This document shows, one piece after another, positions 32,744 to 39,664 of a DNA stretch of 64,000 nt. Numbering within the stretch: the first letter of the stretch is position 1; every line of letters begins with the position of its first letter. The stretch is from the NCBI GenBank assembly GCA_965209085.1, contig OZ242376.1, positions 224,001 to 288,000 of the forward strand, read 5' to 3'. The translations under genes and the position numbers were made by a program. A model generated the notes under the pieces. It had not been told where the DNA came from. It saw nothing but the letters and a program-made list of their open reading frames with translations, and did not search any database. Source of the stretch: Nitrosopumilaceae archaeon. GTDB lineage: Archaea > Thermoproteota > Nitrososphaeria > Nitrososphaerales > Nitrosopumilaceae.

Positions 32744-32873
32744 TATTACCTGTTGTATAATGATATATTTATAATTTTTTGATTGAGGTTCTGTGAAGTT
32801 ATCGGTGCATAGGCGTGAATATGGATATTCTTTGAATTGATTGTAAATATGCAAATAGGATGAATTATATAAT

Positions 32874-34273
32874 AGACCTCATGCATAATTAACTAAAAAA
32901 TCAATTTTGGCAAATCGAAAGATCTATGATCTAGTATCATGTGAGCATAGCATGTGCAAATCAGACAAACGCATGATCTCTAAACTGGAAAAGACGATCT
33001 TAAAGATGGAAAAGACGATCCTAAAGATGGAAAAGAATAGCTCCAGGCAGGAATCAGAAATTCAACACTACAAAAAGATGGCACAGAGTAGCAATGATGA
33101 CAAAAGACAACATGTCGATAAATATTTGAACAAGGGAATTGGGAATGATGTTCATCTATATGAAATGACAGGAATGAACCGTGAAGAATTTGAATGGATT
33201 CTAGAACGGTTCAAAAAAACCGTAGAAAATTCATCAGAGATTCCCCGCTTTTCAGAATATGTGGACGATCCTGGAAACACCTGTATCCTTACCGTAAAGC
33301 AAGTTTTGTTTATCGTATTGTGCCGCAAACGCAATAATCTCAAACAGGGAGCACTTGCGTTCATTGCAGACGTTGATCAGAGCACCATTAGCAGATATCT
33401 GACATTTTCTGATGAACTATTGATGGATATTCTTCCAACGGCTAAGAATATTGGTGCTGCAATACGGACAATACGTACAAGCGAGTTGTTTAAAAAATTC
33501 GTACCCGGCAGAGGCGGCGGCGAGCTATATCTTGATGCCACGTTTGTACAGGTTCAAAGACCGCAGGAGAATCAAGAAACAGTATACTATTCTGGAAAGC
33601 GCAAAAGGCACGTCTACAGCATACAGATAACCTCCAACAAAGATGGAGTGGTAAATGACATTGGCGGTCCAGAAGAGGGCTCAGTACATGACATGGAGGT
33701 ACTGCGGCGTAATCCGCCAAATTTTGGCAAATGGACCGATGGCATGAAAAACTCTGATACAAAAAAAGAGCGCCAAATTACACTCTACACCGACAAGGGA
33801 TACTTGTCCGTGGAAAAAGACTATCCTGGAATTATCTCAAAGCAGCCGTACAAAAAACCAAAGGGTAGGGGATTGACAGAGACAGAACGCGAATATAGCA
33901 AGAGGATCAGTCGTAAGCGCATAAAAGTAGAGCATGCCATAAACCGGCTCAAATGGTTTCGCAGAATGAGTGCCGTATATGATGACACAATGGATGCGTT
34001 TTATACAGAAATCCAAGTGGTTACAGGACTGACCAATCTGCACATCATGTTAAAGGATCGCAAGTATATCGAACCGTTGGAAAAAATTTGCCCTCAAATC
34101 AAGTAGCACATCTTTGTGCATACAGTCACGCATAATATCCTGCTTTTTGTCATGCATATGATATTTGGATTTATTTTGTTGTCTGCTTGAAGGTTTTAGG
34201 CCATATGTACTTTGATCATGACAGTGTCATAGTAGGAACCGTATGTCTTTGCAGTTGATTATGCATGAACTCT
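32874..34273 (+). mobile_element. IS5-family element, copy 2 (1400 bp; transposase 32907-34106)
   Basis: Ends AGACCTCATGCATAAT and ATTATGCATGAACTCT, flanked by AAT on both sides; intact 399-aa DDE ORF. Confidence 0.88.
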
Positions 34274-34276
34274 AAT

Positions 34277-35631
34277 AGACCTTATGCATAATTAACCAAA
34301 AAATCAATTTTGACAAATCGAAAGATCTATGATCTAGTATCACATTCGTACAGCATGTGTGCCCCAGACAAGCGTATAATCGCCCAGCAAACAGAGATGA
34401 TCTCCAAGCTTGAAGCAGAAATTCAACACTACAAAAAAACGATACATGATAATGAGGTCGAAAAGCAACAATCTGCCTACGAATATTTGAACCACATAAT
34501 TGATGATGACAATTATTTGTACGGGACGACTGGAATGAACCGTGAAGAGTTTGAATGGATTCAGGAACGGTTTGAAAAAGTTATCGAATATTCGCCCAAG
34601 GTCCCCCGCTTTTCAGATTATGTCGACGATCCTGGAAACACCTGTATTCTCACTGCATCTCAAATTTTGTTTGTCACACTGTGCCGCAAACGCAACAATC
34701 CTAAACAGGAATTGCTTGCGGCCATTGCAGGCGTTGATCAGAGCACCATCAGCAGATATCTGACCTTTTCTGATGAATTGTTGATGAATATTCTTCCAAC
34801 GGCTAAGAATATTGGTGCTGCAATACGGACAATACGTACAAGCGAGTTGTTTAAAAAATTCGTACCCGGCAGAGGCGGCGGCGAGCTGTATCTTGATGCC
34901 ACGTTTGTACAGGTTCAAAGACCGCAGGAAAACCAAGAGGTAGTATACTCTGGAAAGCGTAAGAGGCACGTCTACAACGTACAGATAACCTCAAACAAAG
35001 ACGGGCTGGTACTTGACATTGGCGGACCTGAAGATGGCTCAGTACATGACATGGAGGTACTGCGGCGTAATCCGCCAAATTTTGGCAAATGGACCGATGG
35101 CATGAAAAACTCTGATACAAAAAAAGAGCGCCAAATTATGCTATATACTGACAAGGGATATCTGTCCGTGGAAAAAGACTATCGGGGCATTATCTCAAAG
35201 CAGCCGTACAAAAAACCAAAGGGCAGAGGATTAACAGAGACAGAACGCGAATACAGCAAGAGAATCAGTCGTAAGCGCATAAAAGTAGAGCATGCCATAA
35301 ACTGGCTCAAATGGTTTCGCAGAATGAGTGCCGTATATGATGACACAATGGATGCGTTTTATACAGAAATCCAAGTGGTTACAGGACTGACCAATCTGCA
35401 CATCATGTTAAAGGATCGCAAGTATATCGAACCGTTGGAAAAAATTTGCCCTCAAATCAAGTAGCACATCTTTGTGCATACAGTCACGCATAATATCCTG
35501 CTTTTTGTCATGCATATGATATTTTGATTTATTTTGTTGTCTGCTTGAAGGTTTTAGGCCATGTGTACTTTGATCATGACAGCGTCATAGTCGGAACCGT
35601 ATGTCTCAGTGATTGATTATGCATAAGGCCT
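34277..35631 (+). mobile_element. IS5-family element, copy 3 (1355 bp; transposase 34310-35464), in tandem with copy 2
   Basis: Near-identical to copy 1; AAT at 34274-76 and 35632-34. Confidence 0.9.
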
Positions 35632-35645
35632 AATAAATGTAATAT

Positions 35646-35840
35646 GTGAATAATATGGGCATTATTGGTACCTATTCGGTAGTTGTGAAATGTGAAAATT
35701 GTGGTACGGGTAATAAAATTGTTATTTCTAAAGGTGTAACGATTGGGAGTAGCTTGAAGAATATCCGTGATGTATGTGGTAATTGTGGCTGTCCGTTAAA
35801 ACGTAGAGCAAATTATACCGCAGATCATAAATTCGTTTAA
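35646..35840 (+). CDS. Small zinc-finger-like protein
   Basis: CENCG...CGNCGC in a 64-aa ORF. Confidence 0.45.
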   Translation: MNNMGIIGTYSVVVKCENCGTGNKIVISKGVTIGSSLKNIRDVCGNCGCPLKRRANYTADHKFV

Positions 35841-36085
35841 ATTCTGAATGATGTTCATAAATGATTCATGTTTTTTACATCTATAACTTCGTCATATTAT
35901 GATATTATTGATGGTTTTTTTAAACGAATTAATGCTTTGGGGTATAACAATAAAGTGATCTTTTTTTCACACCAACCGATAAACTTTTAGATCGCTAAAA
36001 TACATTAGACTTCATGCATAATGGGTCAAATTCACAATTTTTACGAATAAAAATGACCGATTTGAACGATTATGCATAACCATAT

Positions 36086-37208
36086 GTGAAGAGAGCTTCT
36101 AAGACCACAGATGGTTGTAAGAATGTCAAACGATCCGTATCACCGAAACGTAAATCATCTAAAAAAGATCCAAATGCAAACAAACAGATTACCACATATT
36201 CTGGGAAGAATATGTTTGTTGGAATGGACGTTCACAAGAAATTTCTTCAAGTTGCAATGATGGATAAAAAAGCCAAAGTGATTTTTAATGAGAGGATTGA
36301 AAATGAAAACAAGTCCATCAGTCGATTCTTCAGATCAAGCGTACCTGAAAATGCAAAAATCGTAATGGAATCTTCATCCGTATGGTACGGTCTATATCGA
36401 TACATGACAGATAAAATGGGTTATAATGTCGTATTGTCAAATCCATGGGCGACAAAAATCATCGCCGCATCCAAGAAAAAGACCGACAAGAGGGATGCTG
36501 TAACACTTGCAGACCTATTACGGTGCGGATACATATCCCTCTGTCATGTCTCAAACAAGGACATAGTGGAACAACGGCAACTTGTACGATATCGCGACAG
36601 CCTTGTCAAGACAAGGACAACTCTAAAAAACAAAATACATGGAATTTTGTTACAGGGAGGGATAAAGATCTTTGGAGCAACATTTACGCTTACATACAAT
36701 AGAAAACTGCGTTCTCTAAAGGATTATCGTATAAACGGATATTTGGATTCTATTGGATTCGTTAATACAAAAATTGCAGACTCAAACATAAAAGTACACA
36801 ACGCATCCTGTTCAAACAAGGATGCAATGTTGCTCAAGACAATACCTGGCATAGGTGATTTTATTTCATTGATACTGGCAGCAGAGATTGATGGAGTTGA
36901 GAGATTTTCTGAACCAAAACAACTCAAATCATATGCAGGTCTTGCCCCATCGGTTCGCAATTCAGCAGATGTGGTCCATCACGGACATATAACAAAAAGA
37001 GGAAAGTCAGATGATGCGATGGGCACTGGTGGAAGCTGTTACCACACATGTCCGATTTGCATCAGAGAGTAACATTTCTGAATTTTACCGGCGTCTTGCA
37101 AAAAAGAGAGGATCATCCAAGGCCAAAGTTGCAGCAGCGGCCAAGATGCTGGATATCATATTTCGTATGCTAAAGGATAGGAGTGAATTTGAAATACATC
37201 ATAGTTAA
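36086..37208 (+). pseudogene. IS110 DEDD recombinase/transposase with a single +1 frameshift near 37003
   Basis: GMDVHK, VMESS and KTDKRD (DEDD), TIPGIG, YAGLAPSVRNS (catalytic Ser), then MMRWALVEA...KAKVAAAAK in the next frame. Confidence 0.88.
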
Positions 37209-37400
37209 AGCAACAAACCGCGGGTTAGACTTTGGGGATGTTACCCCGGCTGCATAACTGCGGTAAGCTTTAACATGTAGATGAAGATGGTTGTGGGATT
37301 AAATCCCGAATGGATAGATGTCTTTTATCTTTTGGTTGGAACCAGACACATAGCGAAAGCCATACCGCATGACACAAAAAAGCAAGAAACCTTTAAAAAG
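37209..37400 (+). ncRNA. Predicted bridge RNA (seekRNA-type) of the IS110 element
   Basis: Two stem-enclosed internal loops: one carries target-matching TTAGACTTT/TGCATAA, the other carries donor-matching ATGGTT/ATGGATA. Boundaries are approximate. Confidence 0.7.
37385..37399 (+). promoter_or_regulatory. Outward-facing BRE/TATA-like element at the IS110 right end
   Basis: AGAAACC-TTTAAAAA; it would lie ~30 nt upstream of the transposase GTG in the circular intermediate. Confidence 0.45.
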
Positions 37401-37525
37401 TATTCACATGGATAACCTCTATTGCCATTATTGTCTAATAATCACTAAAATTGACAAATTATGCAAGGTTGTACACCATACCACGCATGAGAATGTTTAT
37501 GGACACTATATGATGGATAATAACC

Positions 37526-39664
37526 GTGAAGGTTGCAAAACTACATTTAGAAAAAGAGGCTCTGGAATTTCTTGACAAACAAGGATACAAGGATCTCTTC
37601 CCGCCCCAAAAAACTGCCATAGATGCCGGATTATTAAAAGAAAAAAGCATACTGGTTTCAGCTCCCACTGCGGGAGGCAAAACACTCATTGCCATGATGG
37701 CAATACTCTCGTTTCTCTCAAAAGGCAAGGGCAAGGCCGTATATCTTAGCCCTCTAAAGGCGCTGGCAGCGGAAAAATATTCTGAATTTAAAAAACTCGA
37801 ACAAATTAAAATCGGCGGAAGAAAGCCCCGTGTGGCAGTATCTGTTGGAAATTTGGGCAATTCGAAAAACAATCCTGCAAACAGCGACGTTTTGATTTTA
37901 ACAAACGAAAGAATGGACTATATGATAAGGCGCGGTTCGGACTGGGTTGATGACATAGGTCTGATCATAGCTGATGAGGTGCATCTTGTCGGCGATGATG
38001 ACAGGGGACCGGCACTGGAGATGATTTTAACGCGAATGAAAAGAAAAGATCCGACACCGCAGATAATCGGCCTTAGCGCAACGGTGACAAACTCTGAAGA
38101 GATTGCAGACTGGCTGGGTGCTGATCTTGCAGAAAGCGATTGGCGTCCGGTTCCGCTTACAGAAGGCGTGTGCGACGGCAGAACGGTTGAAATGAACGAT
38201 GGTAAAATATACGAGCCTAAATTTACGGTCAGGGGAATTCCCGTGGATCTTGGTATTGAATGCGTGGTAGAGGGCGGACAGTCGCTCCTGTTTGCAGAAA
38301 CGCGCGTGCGTGCAGCATCACTGGCAACCAAGGCTGCTGATGCGATATCAGAGCTGCTCACAAGCAATGAGCGCAAATCGCTTGCAGCAATATCCAAAAA
38401 AATTACCGGCTCTAGTGAGCGCACCGAACTGGTCCAAAAACTGGCAGATCTGGTGAAAAAAGGCGTGGCGTTTCATCACGCAGGATTGGATCAGAAATGT
38501 CGCGAGGCAGTGGAGGATGGATACCGCAAAGGCGCCATAAAGCTGCTCTCATCAACTCCAACGCTTGCAGCAGGCGTAAATCTTCCCGCAAGGCGCGTTG
38601 TAATATCCAGCGTGATGCGTTACAACGGCAAAGTGGGCGCCAACGTTCCAATACGCGTCCTTGAATACAAACAACTGTGCGGCAGGGCCGGCCGGCCGCA
38701 ATACGACGATCACGGCGAGGCAATAATCGTGACAAGCAGGGCAGCTGAGGAGATTGCCGAACATTACATTGACGGCGAGGCTGAACCCATTGAATCGGTG
38801 ATAACCGAGGAGAATGCATTGCACAACCACGTTTTGGGACTTGTATCAACGGAGCCGGGAATACGCGGCGAGGATGTCGTGAAATTTTTTATGGACACGC
38901 TTGGCGGAATGCAGTACCAGAAAGGTGAGACAAAAAACGGCGTCTCTGAGGCGCTTGAATACCTGGAGGAAAAAGAGATGCTGGTCGGAAAGAAAAAACG
39001 GTACGCTGCAACCGAATTTGGAAAAAGAACCTCCTCACTGTACATTGATCCGCAGACTGCATGGAGGATGCGCGAGGCGATAACGAATGCGTCAAAAAAA
39101 GGATCGCATGCGCTCGGATTCTTACATGTAATAACACAGTGCCGGGAATTTTACCCGCGCATGCAGCTGCGGCAAAAAGATTACGAGCTAGCCGATGAGC
39201 TGCTTGAAAAGAAACGCTCAGAGCTGTTAGATCCCCTGGATGCATCCGAGTGCAGCAGAAGTTTGATTGCACTTGACATGTGGATATCCGAATATTCTGA
39301 ATCAAACATTGCAAGCGCCCTAAAGGCAGAATCCGGTGATGTACACCGCATGAATGAAACTGCGCGGTGGCTTGCATTCTGCATGAGGGAGCTCTCACGG
39401 CATCTTCAACGACCGGATCTTGCAGCAGAGATGGAGTCATTGGAGATGCGCATCAGGTACGGAGTAAAGACACAGCTGCTTGATTTGGTGCGCGTGAGGG
39501 GAATTGGACGCGTCCGGGCGAGAATCTTATACAAGAGGGGAATAAAGACAGTTGAGGATCTTGAAAAAATACCTCTTGCAAAACTTGCAGCAACCGACAA
39601 GATTGGCTCAAAGCTTGCAGCAAGTATAAAATCACAGACGGGCAGATTTGGACCGCGGCGCTAG
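37526..39664 (+). CDS. hel308: Hel308/Ski2-like SF2 DNA helicase
   Basis: APTAGGKT, DEVH, SAT, FHHAGL, GVNLPA, GRAGRP and a C-terminal HhH (GIGRVRAR). Confidence 0.92.
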   Translation: MKVAKLHLEKEALEFLDKQGYKDLFPPQKTAIDAGLLKEKSILVSAPTAGGKTLIAMMAILSFLSKGKGKAVYLSPLKALAAEKYSEFKKLEQIKIGGRKPRVAVSVGNLGNSKNNPANSDVLILTNERMDYMIRRGSDWVDDIGLIIADEVHLVGDDDRGPALEMILTRMKRKDPTPQIIGLSATVTNSEEIADWLGADLAESDWRPVPLTEGVCDGRTVEMNDGKIYEPKFTVRGIPVDLGIECVVEGGQSLLFAETRVRAASLATKAADAISELLTSNERKSLAAISKKITGSSERTELVQKLADLVKKGVAFHHAGLDQKCREAVEDGYRKGAIKLLSSTPTLAAGVNLPARRVVISSVMRYNGKVGANVPIRVLEYKQLCGRAGRPQYDDHGEAIIVTSRAAEEIAEHYIDGEAEPIESVITEENALHNHVLGLVSTEPGIRGEDVVKFFMDTLGGMQYQKGETKNGVSEALEYLEEKEMLVGKKKRYAATEFGKRTSSLYIDPQTAWRMREAITNASKKGSHALGFLHVITQCREFYPRMQLRQKDYELADELLEKKRSELLDPLDASECSRSLIALDMWISEYSESNIASALKAESGDVHRMNETARWLAFCMRELSRHLQRPDLAAEMESLEMRIRYGVKTQLLDLVRVRGIGRVRARILYKRGIKTVEDLEKIPLAKLAATDKIGSKLAASIKSQTGRFGPRR

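What the first reader, a model, noticed from the sequence alone, without database searches (positions are those of the whole stretch)
36004..37423. Archaeal IS110 bridge-RNA recombinase apparently programmed against the terminal repeats of a co-resident IS5 family
Seen: the IS110 element sits inside the right TIR of an IS5-derived MITE; the MITE's ATT TSD is intact on both sides and ATAACC occurs at both IS110 junctions. The 3' non-coding region reads ACCGCGG-G-[TTAGACTTT]-GGGG-ATGTTA-CCCC-GGC-[TGCATAA]-CTGCGGT (37217-37264), an internal loop closed by outer and inner stems. Under the IS621 bridge-RNA rule (left guide = left target + core; right guide = reverse complement of core + right target), the loop spells the 14-mer TTAGACT-TT-ATGCA. 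That is essentially the IS5 TIR plus flank: ATAGACCTTATGCA at 34275 and 21785(-), TTAGACTTCATGCA at 36005, and ATAGAGGTTATGCA at the site actually used. A second loop, [AGATGGTT]-GT-GGGAT-TAA-ATCCC-GA-[ATGGATAG] (37285-37317), matches the element's own circle junction CATATGG-TT-ATCCAT with the same TT core. Established: IS110/IS1111 elements use bridge/seek RNAs, and bacterial IS4321/IS5075 target Tn21-family TIRs. Inference: this is an archaeal, TT-core, RNA-guided recombinase that parasitises, and may inactivate, an expanding IS5/MITE family.
Basis: partly seen in the sequence, partly recalled or inferred. Interest (0 to 1): 0.92.

Follow-up and report, generated by a model that had tools for sequence, protein, structure and literature searches.

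The report
Archaeal bridge-RNA IS110 targeting IS5/MITE ends
This is a copy, broken by a frameshift, of an archaeal IS110-family mobile element whose own small RNA appears to steer it into the end repeats of another transposon family; it is a clear natural example of a mechanism already known from bacteria.

Summary
Window 36079-37412 is an IS110-family element (DEDD transposase, frameshifted here, intact in 2 of 7 full-length genomic copies). It lies inside the right inverted repeat of a 3-bp-TSD MITE that shares its ends with the neighbouring IS5-like elements.

In 11 of 12 left junctions genome-wide the element abuts the same IS5/MITE repeat. The 204-nt 3' non-coding region folds into two stem/internal-loop/hairpin modules. 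These are conserved in homologues from 19 of 151 related archaeal genomes, and 16 of 25 base pairs show compensatory changes.

The first-loop strands match the flanks and the second-loop strands match the element ends. Across 17-20 diverged elements, guides fit their own flanks better than others' (0 of 50,000 permutations, each side).

- The crossover core is TA, not TT/AA.
- The ATAACC repeat is coincidental beyond ATA.
- The strand order is that of IS1111 seekRNAs, not IS621.
- The window copy's own right flank fits its guide only 6 of 9.

A sister subfamily in the same genome carries a different target loop and sits at IS630-family ends. No RNA or transposition data exist. Verdict: a new archaeal member of the known bridge/seek-RNA IS110/IS1111 kind, comparable to the TIR-targeting IS4321/IS5075. 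Interest is moderate.

The parts
36004..36078 (.). Left part of an IS5-type MITE: TSD ATT 36004-06, left inverted repeat from 36007, body, and the inner part of the right inverted repeat ending ...TTATGCA-TA
   Evidence: about 50 MITE-like hits in the genome; same repeat tips as the IS5-like copies at window 32872-34275 and 34275-35633
36077..36078 (+). Left copy of the TA core (crossover dinucleotide)
   Evidence: TA is the only sequence shared by both junctions in every subfamily
36079..37412 (+). IS110-family (IS1111-type) element, 1334 bp without the core; this copy is defective
   Evidence: 7 full-length copies at 96-100% identity plus fragments
36084..36090 (+). Left subterminal inverted repeat ATGTGAA (partner TTCACAT 37403-37409)
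   Evidence: It covaries in homologues (ATGTGCC/GGCACAT in family 2 and L040; ATGTGAAT/ATTCACAT in L031)
36086..37072 (+). Transposase reading frame, first part (GTG 36086; conserved MFVGMDVHK start at 36213). A +1 frameshift near 37000-37010 breaks it
   Evidence: Intact 373-aa version in L002:1719-2837(-), with PF01548 97.7 bits, PF02371 77.1 bits and NF033542 218.6 bits against a cut-off of 140
37011..37208 (+). Transposase C-terminal part in the shifted frame; stop TAA 37206-08 lies in the basal stem of the RNA
37204..37323 (+). Bridge/seek RNA (model R1 hit window 37195-37339): basal stem 37204-10/37268-74, stem 37217-23/37258-64, hairpin 37234-47; second module stem 37279-83/37319-23, hairpin 37295-307
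   Evidence: (25 pairs, 16 with compensatory change, 95.3% of cells paired against 33-46% when slid)
37225..37233 (+). Target loop, 5' strand TTAGACTTT: complementary to the + strand right flank (core A plus repeat tip plus 2 nt of TSD)
37251..37257 (+). Target loop, 3' strand TGCATAA: identical to the + strand left flank TGCA plus core TA plus first element base
37285..37292 (+). Donor loop, 5' strand AGATGGTT: complementary to the left end AACCAT(A)T
   Evidence: CTAT left end with AGATAG guide in L031
37310..37317 (+). Donor loop, 3' strand ATGGATAG: identical to the right end ATGGA plus TA
   Evidence: ATGGAT / ATAGAT / ATGGGT guide variants track the right end: 14 of 15 exact; L038's end is one base shorter
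37392..37399 (+). Outward-facing TATA-like box TTTAAAAA, about 20 nt from the right end. Candidate archaeal junction promoter after circularisation
   Evidence: a TATA-like hexamer 18-22 nt from the end in 14 of 15 homologues; function is inferred
37413..37423 (.). Right copy of the TA core (37413-14), MITE repeat tip ACCTCT (37415-20) and TSD ATT (37421-23)

Best explanation
Window 36079-37412 is a frameshifted copy of an archaeal IS110-family insertion sequence of the IS1111 type. Its DEDD/serine recombinase would work with a roughly 120-nt RNA encoded just after, and overlapping, the stop codon. The RNA has two internal loops. The first loop reads the target: its 5' strand pairs with the top strand right of a TA core, and its 3' strand pairs with the bottom strand left of the core. 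The second loop reads the element's own joined ends (right end-TA-left end) in the same way.

In this subfamily the target loop spells the tip of the IS5/MITE inverted repeat (TGCA-TA-AGGTCTAA). The element therefore lands at one fixed position and orientation inside those repeats and cuts off their last 8-9 bp.

Shown here: the anatomy, the insertion sites, RNA structure covariation, and guide/flank and guide/end covariation.
Inferred from the family: circular intermediate, strand exchange at TA, RNA made from the transposase transcript, an archaeal TATA box in the right end driving the gene across the circle junction, and loss of mobility of the hit IS5/MITE.
For: Protein:
- PF01548 and PF02371.
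- NF033542 'IS110 family RNA-guided transposase', 218.6 bits against a cut-off of 140.
- It matches the solved IS621 and ISCro4 transposases. The GxD, xxE, TDxxD and GL-P----S columns read identically.

Sites:
- 11 of 12 left junctions are TATGCA|TAACC.
- 15 of 15 right junctions are followed by an IS5/MITE-like repeat tip.
- Left-flank contexts are: MITE in both orientations (8), IS5 left end (2), IS5 right end (1), other (1).

RNA:
- Two-module consensus structure in 15 elements of 41-100% protein identity. 16 of 25 pairs have compensatory change. 95.3% of cells are paired against 33-46% with slid partners. 0 of 500 shuffles reach the observed value.
- Model R1 finds 20 copies in this genome and hits in 19 of 151 genomes of the family.

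Guides:
- 3' strand against left flank: 3.71 of 6 identities cognate, 1.29 non-cognate (n=17, 0 of 50,000 permutations).
- 5' strand against right flank: longest common run 4.75 against 3.09 (n=20, 0 of 50,000).
- The donor 3' strand tracks right-end variants: 14 of 15 exact, with L038's end one base shorter.

Within this genome:
- The 4 copies with guide TTAGAGTTT all sit beside ACTCTA tips.
- 6 of the 10 copies with TTAGACTTT sit beside GGTC(T/C)A tips.
- Family 2 keeps the donor loop and ends but has target loop GCAGTATAT / ATT(C/G)TAA. It sits at IS630-family ends ...TA-TACTGCGG.

Same-genus genome G019: another subfamily hits the same repeat 6 bp further in, with copy-specific guides ATGCATACG and ATGCACAAG beside ...ATACGG and ...ATAAGG.

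Strand order and 3' location match IS1111 seekRNAs (PMC11187229, sections 6, 9 and 12 read). The loop rule matches PMC11208160 (passages read).
Against: - There is no evidence that the RNA is made or bound. No RNA run was listed, and Rfam 15 has no matching family.
- No circle junction or precise-excision joint was seen in public DNA contigs.
- The window copy is itself defective. Its own right flank fits its guide only 6 of 9 (AACCTCTAT against AAAGTCTAA).
- 4 of the 10 copies with the C-variant guide lie beside the other tip variant.
- Several homologues show weak 5'-strand matches, with longest common runs of 2-3 (L038, L041, L032, L037, L058).
- One left junction (C1:683415) is not in a recognisable repeat.
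- The elements compared are related, so the permutation counts overstate independence.
- The donor 5' strand has a mismatch to the left end in several homologues.
Confidence: 0.85

Rival explanations
1. The recombinase recognises the IS5/MITE repeat through protein-DNA contacts alone. The 3' non-coding region is conserved for another reason (mRNA stability, terminator, end recognition), and its likeness to the target is chance.
For: No RNA or binding data are available. The window copy's guide fits its own right flank only 6 of 9.
Against: Loop strands change together with flanks across 17-20 elements, with 0 of 50,000 permutations on each side. Family 2 has the same ends and donor loop but a different target loop and different sites. 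The stems are kept by compensatory changes while the loop strands vary.
Confidence: 0.04
2. The many IS110-in-repeat junctions are not independent insertions. They are copies of one composite (MITE plus IS110) spread by the IS5 transposase or by segmental duplication.
For: Two solo fragments (C1:728323 and 959195) share the same flank, as do two left junctions (558902 and 963195).
Against: Left flanks fall into at least four contexts: MITE forward, MITE reverse, IS5 left end, IS5 right end. Right flanks beyond the tip mostly differ. The insertion splits the repeat, so the IS5 enzyme should not move the composite. Guide sub-lineages sit at matching tip variants.
Confidence: 0.03
3. The RNA is real and guides recombination, but landing in other transposons' ends is a by-product of needing TA plus AT-rich sequence that happens to be abundant in repeats. 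It is not a selected 'safe-haven' or parasitic strategy.
For: 126 unoccupied repeat-like tips exist, so abundance alone makes them frequent targets. Family 2's left-side match is loose, about 3-4 nt.
Against: Independent subfamilies in at least three genomes (this one, G019, G176) are each programmed onto termini of a mobile element: IS5/MITE at two positions, IS630, and another IS110's left end. L034 (G001) also sits beside an IS5-like tip. Guide variants follow repeat variants.
Confidence: 0.08

Closest known systems
[quoted passage not shown]
   Same: An IS110-family element with subterminal inverted repeats that lands at one position and orientation inside another transposon's terminal repeat.
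   Different: Those are bacterial, with a Tn3-family target. Here the host is an archaeon, the target is an IS5-type IS/MITE repeat, and the core is TA. Sequence relationship to IS4321 was not tested. The best plasmid-borne relatives are haloarchaeal and Rhizobium IS110 transposases at 33-36% identity.
IS1111-type seekRNA elements ISEc11, ISPa11, ISKpn4 (Siddiquee et al. 2024, PMC11187229; sections 6, 9, 12 and 13 read)
   Same: Long non-coding region downstream of the transposase gene. A short structured RNA with the top-strand match 5' of the bottom-strand match. Subterminal repeats. Insertion without target duplication.
   Different: Those were shown experimentally in bacteria; here the evidence is comparative only. 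The transposase stop codon lies in the RNA's basal stem. An archaeal-type TATA box replaces the bacterial -35/-10 junction promoter (inferred).
IS621 bridge RNA system (Durrant et al. 2024, PMC11208160, passages read; structures 8wt6 and others)
   Same: DEDD plus serine recombinase. Two internal loops, one for target and one for donor. Each loop has one strand per DNA strand, overlapping at a 2-nt core.
   Different: The IS621 RNA lies upstream in the left end. Its 5' loop strand pairs with the bottom strand, and its core is CT. Here the RNA is downstream, the strand order is reversed and the core is TA. The protein match to 8wt6 is weak (28.7 bits).
ISEc21 (IS110 group), which targets a conserved codon region inside IS3-family transposase genes (PMC11187229, section 12 read)
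   Same: An RNA-guided IS110-family element whose natural target lies in another insertion sequence.
   Different: It targets a coding region rather than the terminal repeat. It has an upstream RNA and is bacterial.
ISPpu9 of Pseudomonas putida with the downstream Ssr9 small RNA and solo ssr9 copies (PMC12288879; abstract in search listing only)
   Same: An IS110-family element that targets a repeat family, with the RNA gene downstream and extra RNA-only copies in the genome.
   Different: Its targets are REP sequences in a bacterium. Here the 20 RNA modules outnumber the 2 intact transposase genes.

Membership tests
IS110 family (ISfinder sense; NCBIfam NF033542) | N-terminal RuvC-like DEDD domain and C-terminal Transposase_20 domain with the G(L)-P----S motif | tested here: met
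   PF01548 97.7 bits and PF02371 77.1 bits. NF033542 218.6 bits against a cut-off of 140. Alignment to IS621/ISCro4 keeps the D, E, D..D and Ser columns. Residue numbering is recalled and was not checked.
IS110 family | Site-specific insertion without terminal inverted repeats at the very ends and without a target duplication beyond the shared core | tested here: met
   Junctions share only TA (or ATA). The uninterrupted repeat TGCATAAGGTCTAA is present elsewhere in the genome.
Bridge/seek RNA systems | Structured non-coding RNA with two internal loops whose strands match target and donor | tested here: met
   Structure covariation. Guide-flank and guide-end covariation.
Bridge/seek RNA systems | The RNA is expressed, binds the recombinase and is required for transposition | not testable with these tools
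   No RNA run was listed.
Bridge/seek RNA systems | Circular intermediate with abutted ends | tested here: inconclusive
   No right end-to-left end joint appeared in four public DNA runs held as contigs. Contigs drop rare forms, so this says nothing either way.
IS1111 group | Subterminal inverted repeats of 7-17 bp | tested here: met
   ATGTGAA 36084-90 and TTCACAT 37403-09, 5 and 3 bases in from the ends. They covary in homologues.
IS1111 group | Longer non-coding region and RNA downstream of the transposase gene; top-strand match 5' of bottom-strand match | tested here: met
   204 nt downstream against about 7-134 nt upstream. The 5' loop strand is complementary to the + strand right flank. 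The criterion comes from PMC11187229, sections 6, 9 and 12.
IS1111 group | Transposase branches with IS1111 in a phylogeny | not tested
   No ISfinder reference sequences were on hand. The nearest annotated plasmid relatives are unnamed 'IS110 family transposase' entries at no more than 36% identity.
Rfam RNA families | Match to a curated covariance model | tested here: not met
   In window 35500-38000 the best hits were unrelated families at E above 1 and far below their gathering scores. The library may simply hold no bridge-RNA model.
IS5 family (the target element) | DDE transposase of the IS5/DDE_Tnp_4 type, terminal inverted repeats, short TSD | tested here: met
   PF13359 72.9 bits, but NCBIfam IS5 models score below their cut-offs (68 against 140). 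Shared repeat tips and 3-bp AAT/ATT duplications. Assignment to the ISL2-like subgroup is recalled and was not tested.

The most novel reading that the evidence does not exclude
In ammonia-oxidising archaea, an IS1111-like bridge-recombinase clade has radiated by re-writing its target loop onto the termini of whichever mobile element is abundant. Targets seen are the IS5/MITE repeat at two different TA positions, the IS630 end with its TA duplication, and even the left end of another IS110.

Within a single genome, guide variants track repeat variants. Defective elements ride on a shared donor loop and on the two intact recombinase genes: family 2 with a shared in-frame stop, an internally deleted mini-element, and solo RNA modules. 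This would be an RNA-programmed hyperparasite network that splits, and so disables, IS/MITE ends. Repeat variants with TG in place of the TA core would be possible escapees. Expression from the circle would use an archaeal TATA box.
Probability: 0.35. Interest if true: 0.65.

Novelty: new member of a known kind. Interest (0 to 1): 0.45.

Why it matters
Bridge/seek-RNA recombinases are being developed as programmable genome-insertion tools, and nearly all characterised ones are bacterial. This locus and its relatives give a compact natural data set from archaea: about 20 RNA copies in a 1.7-Mb genome, several subfamilies, and clear target and donor pairs. Re-programming of the target loop can be read directly from sequence, including a TA core and single-base guide changes that follow target variants.

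It also shows that transposon-on-transposon targeting, known from IS4321/IS5075 and ISEc21, extends to archaeal IS5/MITE, IS630 and IS110 elements. That bears on how small archaeal genomes limit the spread of insertion sequences. None of this changes the known mechanism, so the value is as a well-documented new member and a source of orthologues to test.

Tried and rejected
Rfam scan of window 35500-38000: nothing relevant.

RNA evidence: the look-up of sequencing runs listed no RNA holder, so expression could not be examined.

Read laying of four DNA runs on window 35400-38100 gave no joint that skips the element and no right-to-left-end joint. Repeats fragment the contigs there. The only signal was loose ends diverging after 36078/36079 and 37414/37415. 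These fit the TA core but come from other repeat copies.

The search for related loci in genome contigs gave only 5 loci: 3 short archaeal fragments and 2 distant bacterial ones. It was useful only for the names of relatives (Nitrososphaeraceae, Ca. Nitrosopolaris MAGs).

Two first attempts to delimit the RNA in homologues with loose regular expressions picked sites inside the gene and were replaced. In one search the right end was mis-picked for L034 and L058 and missed for L038; this was corrected.

Rejected readings:
- AA/TT core. It would need core mismatches at 3 fam1 right junctions (ATAC, ATAC, ATAT) and at family 2.
- ATAACC as a 6-bp duplication. Only ATA is shared in other copies.
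- The IS621 strand order.
- The need to repair the frameshift.
- Spread as a composite.

Not done:
- No phylogeny against ISfinder references, because none was on hand.
- No protein-database search for bacterial relatives, judged not worth the cost.
- No structure prediction.
- Supplementary files of the papers were closed. The target tables and bridge-RNA predictions in the supplements of PMC11208160 and PMC11187229 may already list archaeal members.
- Searches for prior reports found no paper on an archaeal IS110 RNA aimed at IS5/MITE repeats.
Full report
WHAT IS THERE

The window lies at C1:224001-288000 of a single-contig 1.69-Mb genome. Its rRNA operon scores best with the archaeal SSU and LSU models in clan competition. 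Named relatives of the transposase are Nitrososphaeraceae and Ca. Nitrosopolaris MAGs.

The element's transposase frame runs from 36086 to 37072 and continues in another frame at 37011-37208. Two of the seven full-length genomic copies carry the same gene uninterrupted, at C1:156304-157656 and 693557-694900. The other four, besides the window copy, have stops or frameshifts. The intact 373-aa product has three lines of family support:
- PF01548 and PF02371.
- It passes NCBIfam NF033542, 'IS110 family RNA-guided transposase' (218.6 bits, cut-off 140).
- It matches the solved IS621 and ISCro4 transposases, with the acidic and serine motif columns conserved.

Its best plasmid-borne relatives are haloarchaeal and Rhizobium IS110 transposases at only 33-36% identity.

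WHERE IT SITS

Probing the genome for the element's two ends gave 12 left and 15 right junctions.

Left junctions: 11 of 12 read TATGCA|TAACCATATG. The sequence further left falls into these contexts:
- the roughly 75-bp MITE body, in one orientation (3) or the other (5);
- the inside of the left end (2) of the full-length IS5-like element;
- the inside of the right end (1) of that element;
- one junction (C1:683415) is not in a recognisable repeat.

The IS5-like element has two adjacent copies in the window, 32872-34275 and 34275-35633.

Right junctions: all 15 are followed by a repeat tip of the form A(A/C/T)(G/A/C)(G/C)TCTA(A/T)T.

The IS5-like gene has DDE_Tnp_4. Its copies and the MITE share about 20-bp ends and a 3-bp duplication: AAT for both IS5 copies and ATT for the MITE. 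So the 'ATT TSD intact on both sides' is right.

The genome holds 126 further, unoccupied repeat-like 19-mers against about 11 expected from composition.

THE CORE

- Left junctions always read GCA-TA-ACC.
- Right junctions read GGA-TA-A, GGA-TA-C (two copies) or GAA-TA-T. Intact repeats with TGCATACGG exist.
- The diverged second subfamily reads C-TA-ACC on the left and GGA-TA-TACTGC on the right.
- In 14 of 15 homologues from other genomes the right end is followed by TA.

TA is thus the only dinucleotide common to both junctions everywhere. In window coordinates the cores are 36077-78 and 37413-14, and the element is 36079-37412. The ATAACC at both junctions is ATA plus an accident of this MITE's tip (ACCTCT).

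Of the 126 unoccupied tips, 70 have TA at this place and 47 have TG. Under the family's mechanism the TG ones should be refractory, but that is inference. The left tip of this very MITE (36005) is such a TG variant.

THE RNA

The 204 nt between the stop codon and the right end are conserved in homologues of 41-61% protein identity. Such homologues occur in 32 of 200 genomes of the same taxonomic family.

Fifteen such regions align and give a consensus of two stem/internal-loop/hairpin modules, with 16 of 25 pairs showing compensatory change.

Counting pairs on that structure:
- 95.3% of cells are paired, against 33-46% when the 3' partners are slid by 1-3 columns.
- 0 of 500 column shuffles reach the observed covariation.

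The caveats of that tool about related sequences apply.

The window sequence alone folds with z = -3.07.

A covariance model built from the alignment gave these hits:
- 18 more copies in loci from other genomes;
- 20 copies in this genome;
- hits in 19 of 151 genomes and 9 of 27 genera of the family.

The transposase stop codon lies in the basal stem, so the RNA is probably cut from the transposase transcript (inference).

DO THE LOOPS READ THE DNA?

The published rule is that each loop has one strand pairing with the bottom strand and one with the top strand, overlapping at the core (PMC11208160, passages read). In IS1111-type elements the RNA lies downstream and the top-strand match comes first (PMC11187229, abstract and sections 6, 9, 12 read).

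In the window element:
- The 5' strand TTAGACTTT is the complement of the + strand right flank A-AGGTCTAA, with one G·U.
- The 3' strand TGCATAA equals the + strand left flank TGCA-TA plus the first element base.

That is the IS1111 order.

The second loop's strands AGATGGTT and ATGGATAG match the left end AACCAT(A)T and the right end ATGGA-TA.

Tests across elements (first set, enlarged set):
- The six bases 5' of TA in the 3' strand match the cognate left flank at 3.71 of 6 positions, against 1.29 for non-cognate pairs (n=17, 0 of 50,000 permutations).
- The reverse complement of the 5' strand shares a run of 4.75 bases with the cognate right flank, against 3.09 (n=20, 0 of 50,000).
- The donor 3' strand follows the right-end variants ATGGAT, ATAGAT and ATGGGT exactly in 14 of 15; L038's end is one base shorter.
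- The subterminal repeats also covary: ATGTGAA/TTCACAT against ATGTGCC/GGCACAT.

These elements are kin, so the permutation figures overstate independence. The direction is nonetheless uniform.

NATURAL RE-PROGRAMMING

Three cases are especially telling.

First, a sub-lineage of four copies in this genome has guide TTAGAGTTT, and all four lie beside ACTCTA tips, its exact complement. Of the ten copies with TTAGACTTT, six lie beside GGTC(T/C)A tips and four beside (A/C)CTCTA tips.

Second, family 2 (about 65% DNA identity; three full-length copies, a fourth interrupted copy, and fragments) keeps the ends and donor loop but has target loop GCAGTATAT / ATT(C/G)TAA. Its right flank is the terminus of an IS630-family element (NF033545 112.9 bits, cut-off 100). 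Unoccupied copies of that element exist elsewhere.

Third, in the same-genus genome G019 another subfamily sits in the same IS5/MITE repeat but at the TA six bases further in. Two copies there carry guides ATGCATACG and ATGCACAAG, beside ...TGCATACGG and ...TGCATAAGG. In G176 one subfamily sits in the left end of another IS110 subfamily. L034, from another genus, sits beside ACGCA-TA-CGGTCTAAT with guide CGCATAA.

WEAK POINTS

- Nothing shows that the RNA is made or bound: no RNA run is listed. No circle or excision joint was seen.
- The window copy is defective, and its guide fits its own right flank only 6 of 9. It may have been placed by another copy's RNA, or the site or guide may have drifted.
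- Some homologues show only 2-3-base runs on the 5' strand.
- Several donor 5' strands carry a mismatch to the left end.

HOW IT MOST LIKELY WORKS

This follows the family's established mechanism plus the evidence above.
1. An intact copy makes the recombinase and the RNA.
2. The element leaves as, or is copied into, a circle joining right end-TA-left end.
3. The donor loop holds that junction and the target loop holds TGCA-TA-AGGTCTAA.
4. Strands are exchanged at TA.

A TATA-like hexamer lies 18-22 nt inside the right end in 14 of 15 homologues. Archaeal promoters place the TATA box about 25 nt upstream of the start (recalled). After circularisation this box would therefore start transcription at the very beginning of the left end. 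That would be the archaeal counterpart of the bacterial junction promoter. This is inference only.

The insertion separates the last 8-9 bp of the repeat from the rest by 1.3 kb. This should stop the IS5 enzyme from using that end (inference, untested).

COMPARISON AND NOVELTY

The element meets the tested criteria of the IS110 family and of the IS1111 group: subterminal repeats, a downstream RNA and the strand order. Phylogenetic placement was not tested.

Targeting another transposon's terminal repeat is known for IS4321/IS5075. Targeting another IS is known for ISEc21 (PMC11187229, section 12). Archaeal IS110 recombinases are catalogued, 662 of them in the preprint 10.1101/2024.06.21.599552 (passages read). 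IS110-type transposases were noted in soil Thaumarchaeota in 2012 (PMC3379541, passage read).

My four literature searches found no description of an archaeal bridge/seek RNA aimed at IS5/MITE repeats. The supplements of the two 2024 papers could not be opened and may list such elements.

I therefore rate this a new member of a known kind: well supported, tidy and useful, but not surprising to a specialist.

Noticed in passing
G000:C1:666534-667868, 856439-857771, 1172114-1173447, 730171-732616 (outside the window): A second IS110 subfamily (about 65% DNA and 57% protein identity). It has the same ends and donor loop as the window element but a different target loop, and it is inserted at the TA next to IS630-family termini. 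The three full-length copies share an in-frame TAA in the transposase gene, so it may be moved in trans by the first subfamily's enzyme.
   Followed up: partly
G000:C1:1681628-1682154; also 728323-728601, 959195-959473, 1168577-1168952, 1642551-1642921: An internally deleted derivative (about 48 bp of left end joined to the last 478 bp, carrying the RNA and right end). Several 5'-truncated copies also keep only the RNA module and right end. The genome has 20 RNA modules but only 2 intact transposase genes of this subfamily.
   Followed up: partly
window 37392-37399 and the equivalent place in L030-L058: An outward-facing TATA-like box (TTTAAAAA / TTTATAAA) starts 18-22 nt before the right end in 14 of 15 homologues. 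It is a candidate archaeal version of the circle-junction promoter.
   Followed up: partly
window 32872-35633: Two IS5-like copies lie head to tail and share one 3-bp AAT at their junction (34273-34275). Their transposases differ by an N-terminal repeat (MEKTILK duplicated in the first).
   Followed up: no
whole genome: Of 126 unoccupied IS5/MITE repeat-like tips, 47 carry TG where the IS110 core TA would be. One is the left tip of the MITE in the window (36005). They may be refractory to insertion.
   Followed up: partly
L070 and L071 (G176:C1:1500697-1503147, 439989-442439): One IS110 subfamily is inserted in the left end (ACTA-TA-TGTGAAT) of another IS110 subfamily, with a matching target loop. 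This is IS110 inside IS110.
   Followed up: partly
L033 (G039:C20): About 30 bp (ATTATTCGTTTTGAAATTTCAGGTATAATG) occur on both sides of the element. This may be a tandem or re-inserted target. It is not explained.
   Followed up: no
G000:C1:666000-695000: A cluster of at least eight IS110 copies and fragments of both subfamilies lies within about 30 kb. It looks like a transposon-rich patch.
   Followed up: no
L041 (G088:C2): The right end CCACATGGATA is duplicated in tandem (…GACCACATGGATAATGACCACATGGATACAGG…).
   Followed up: no
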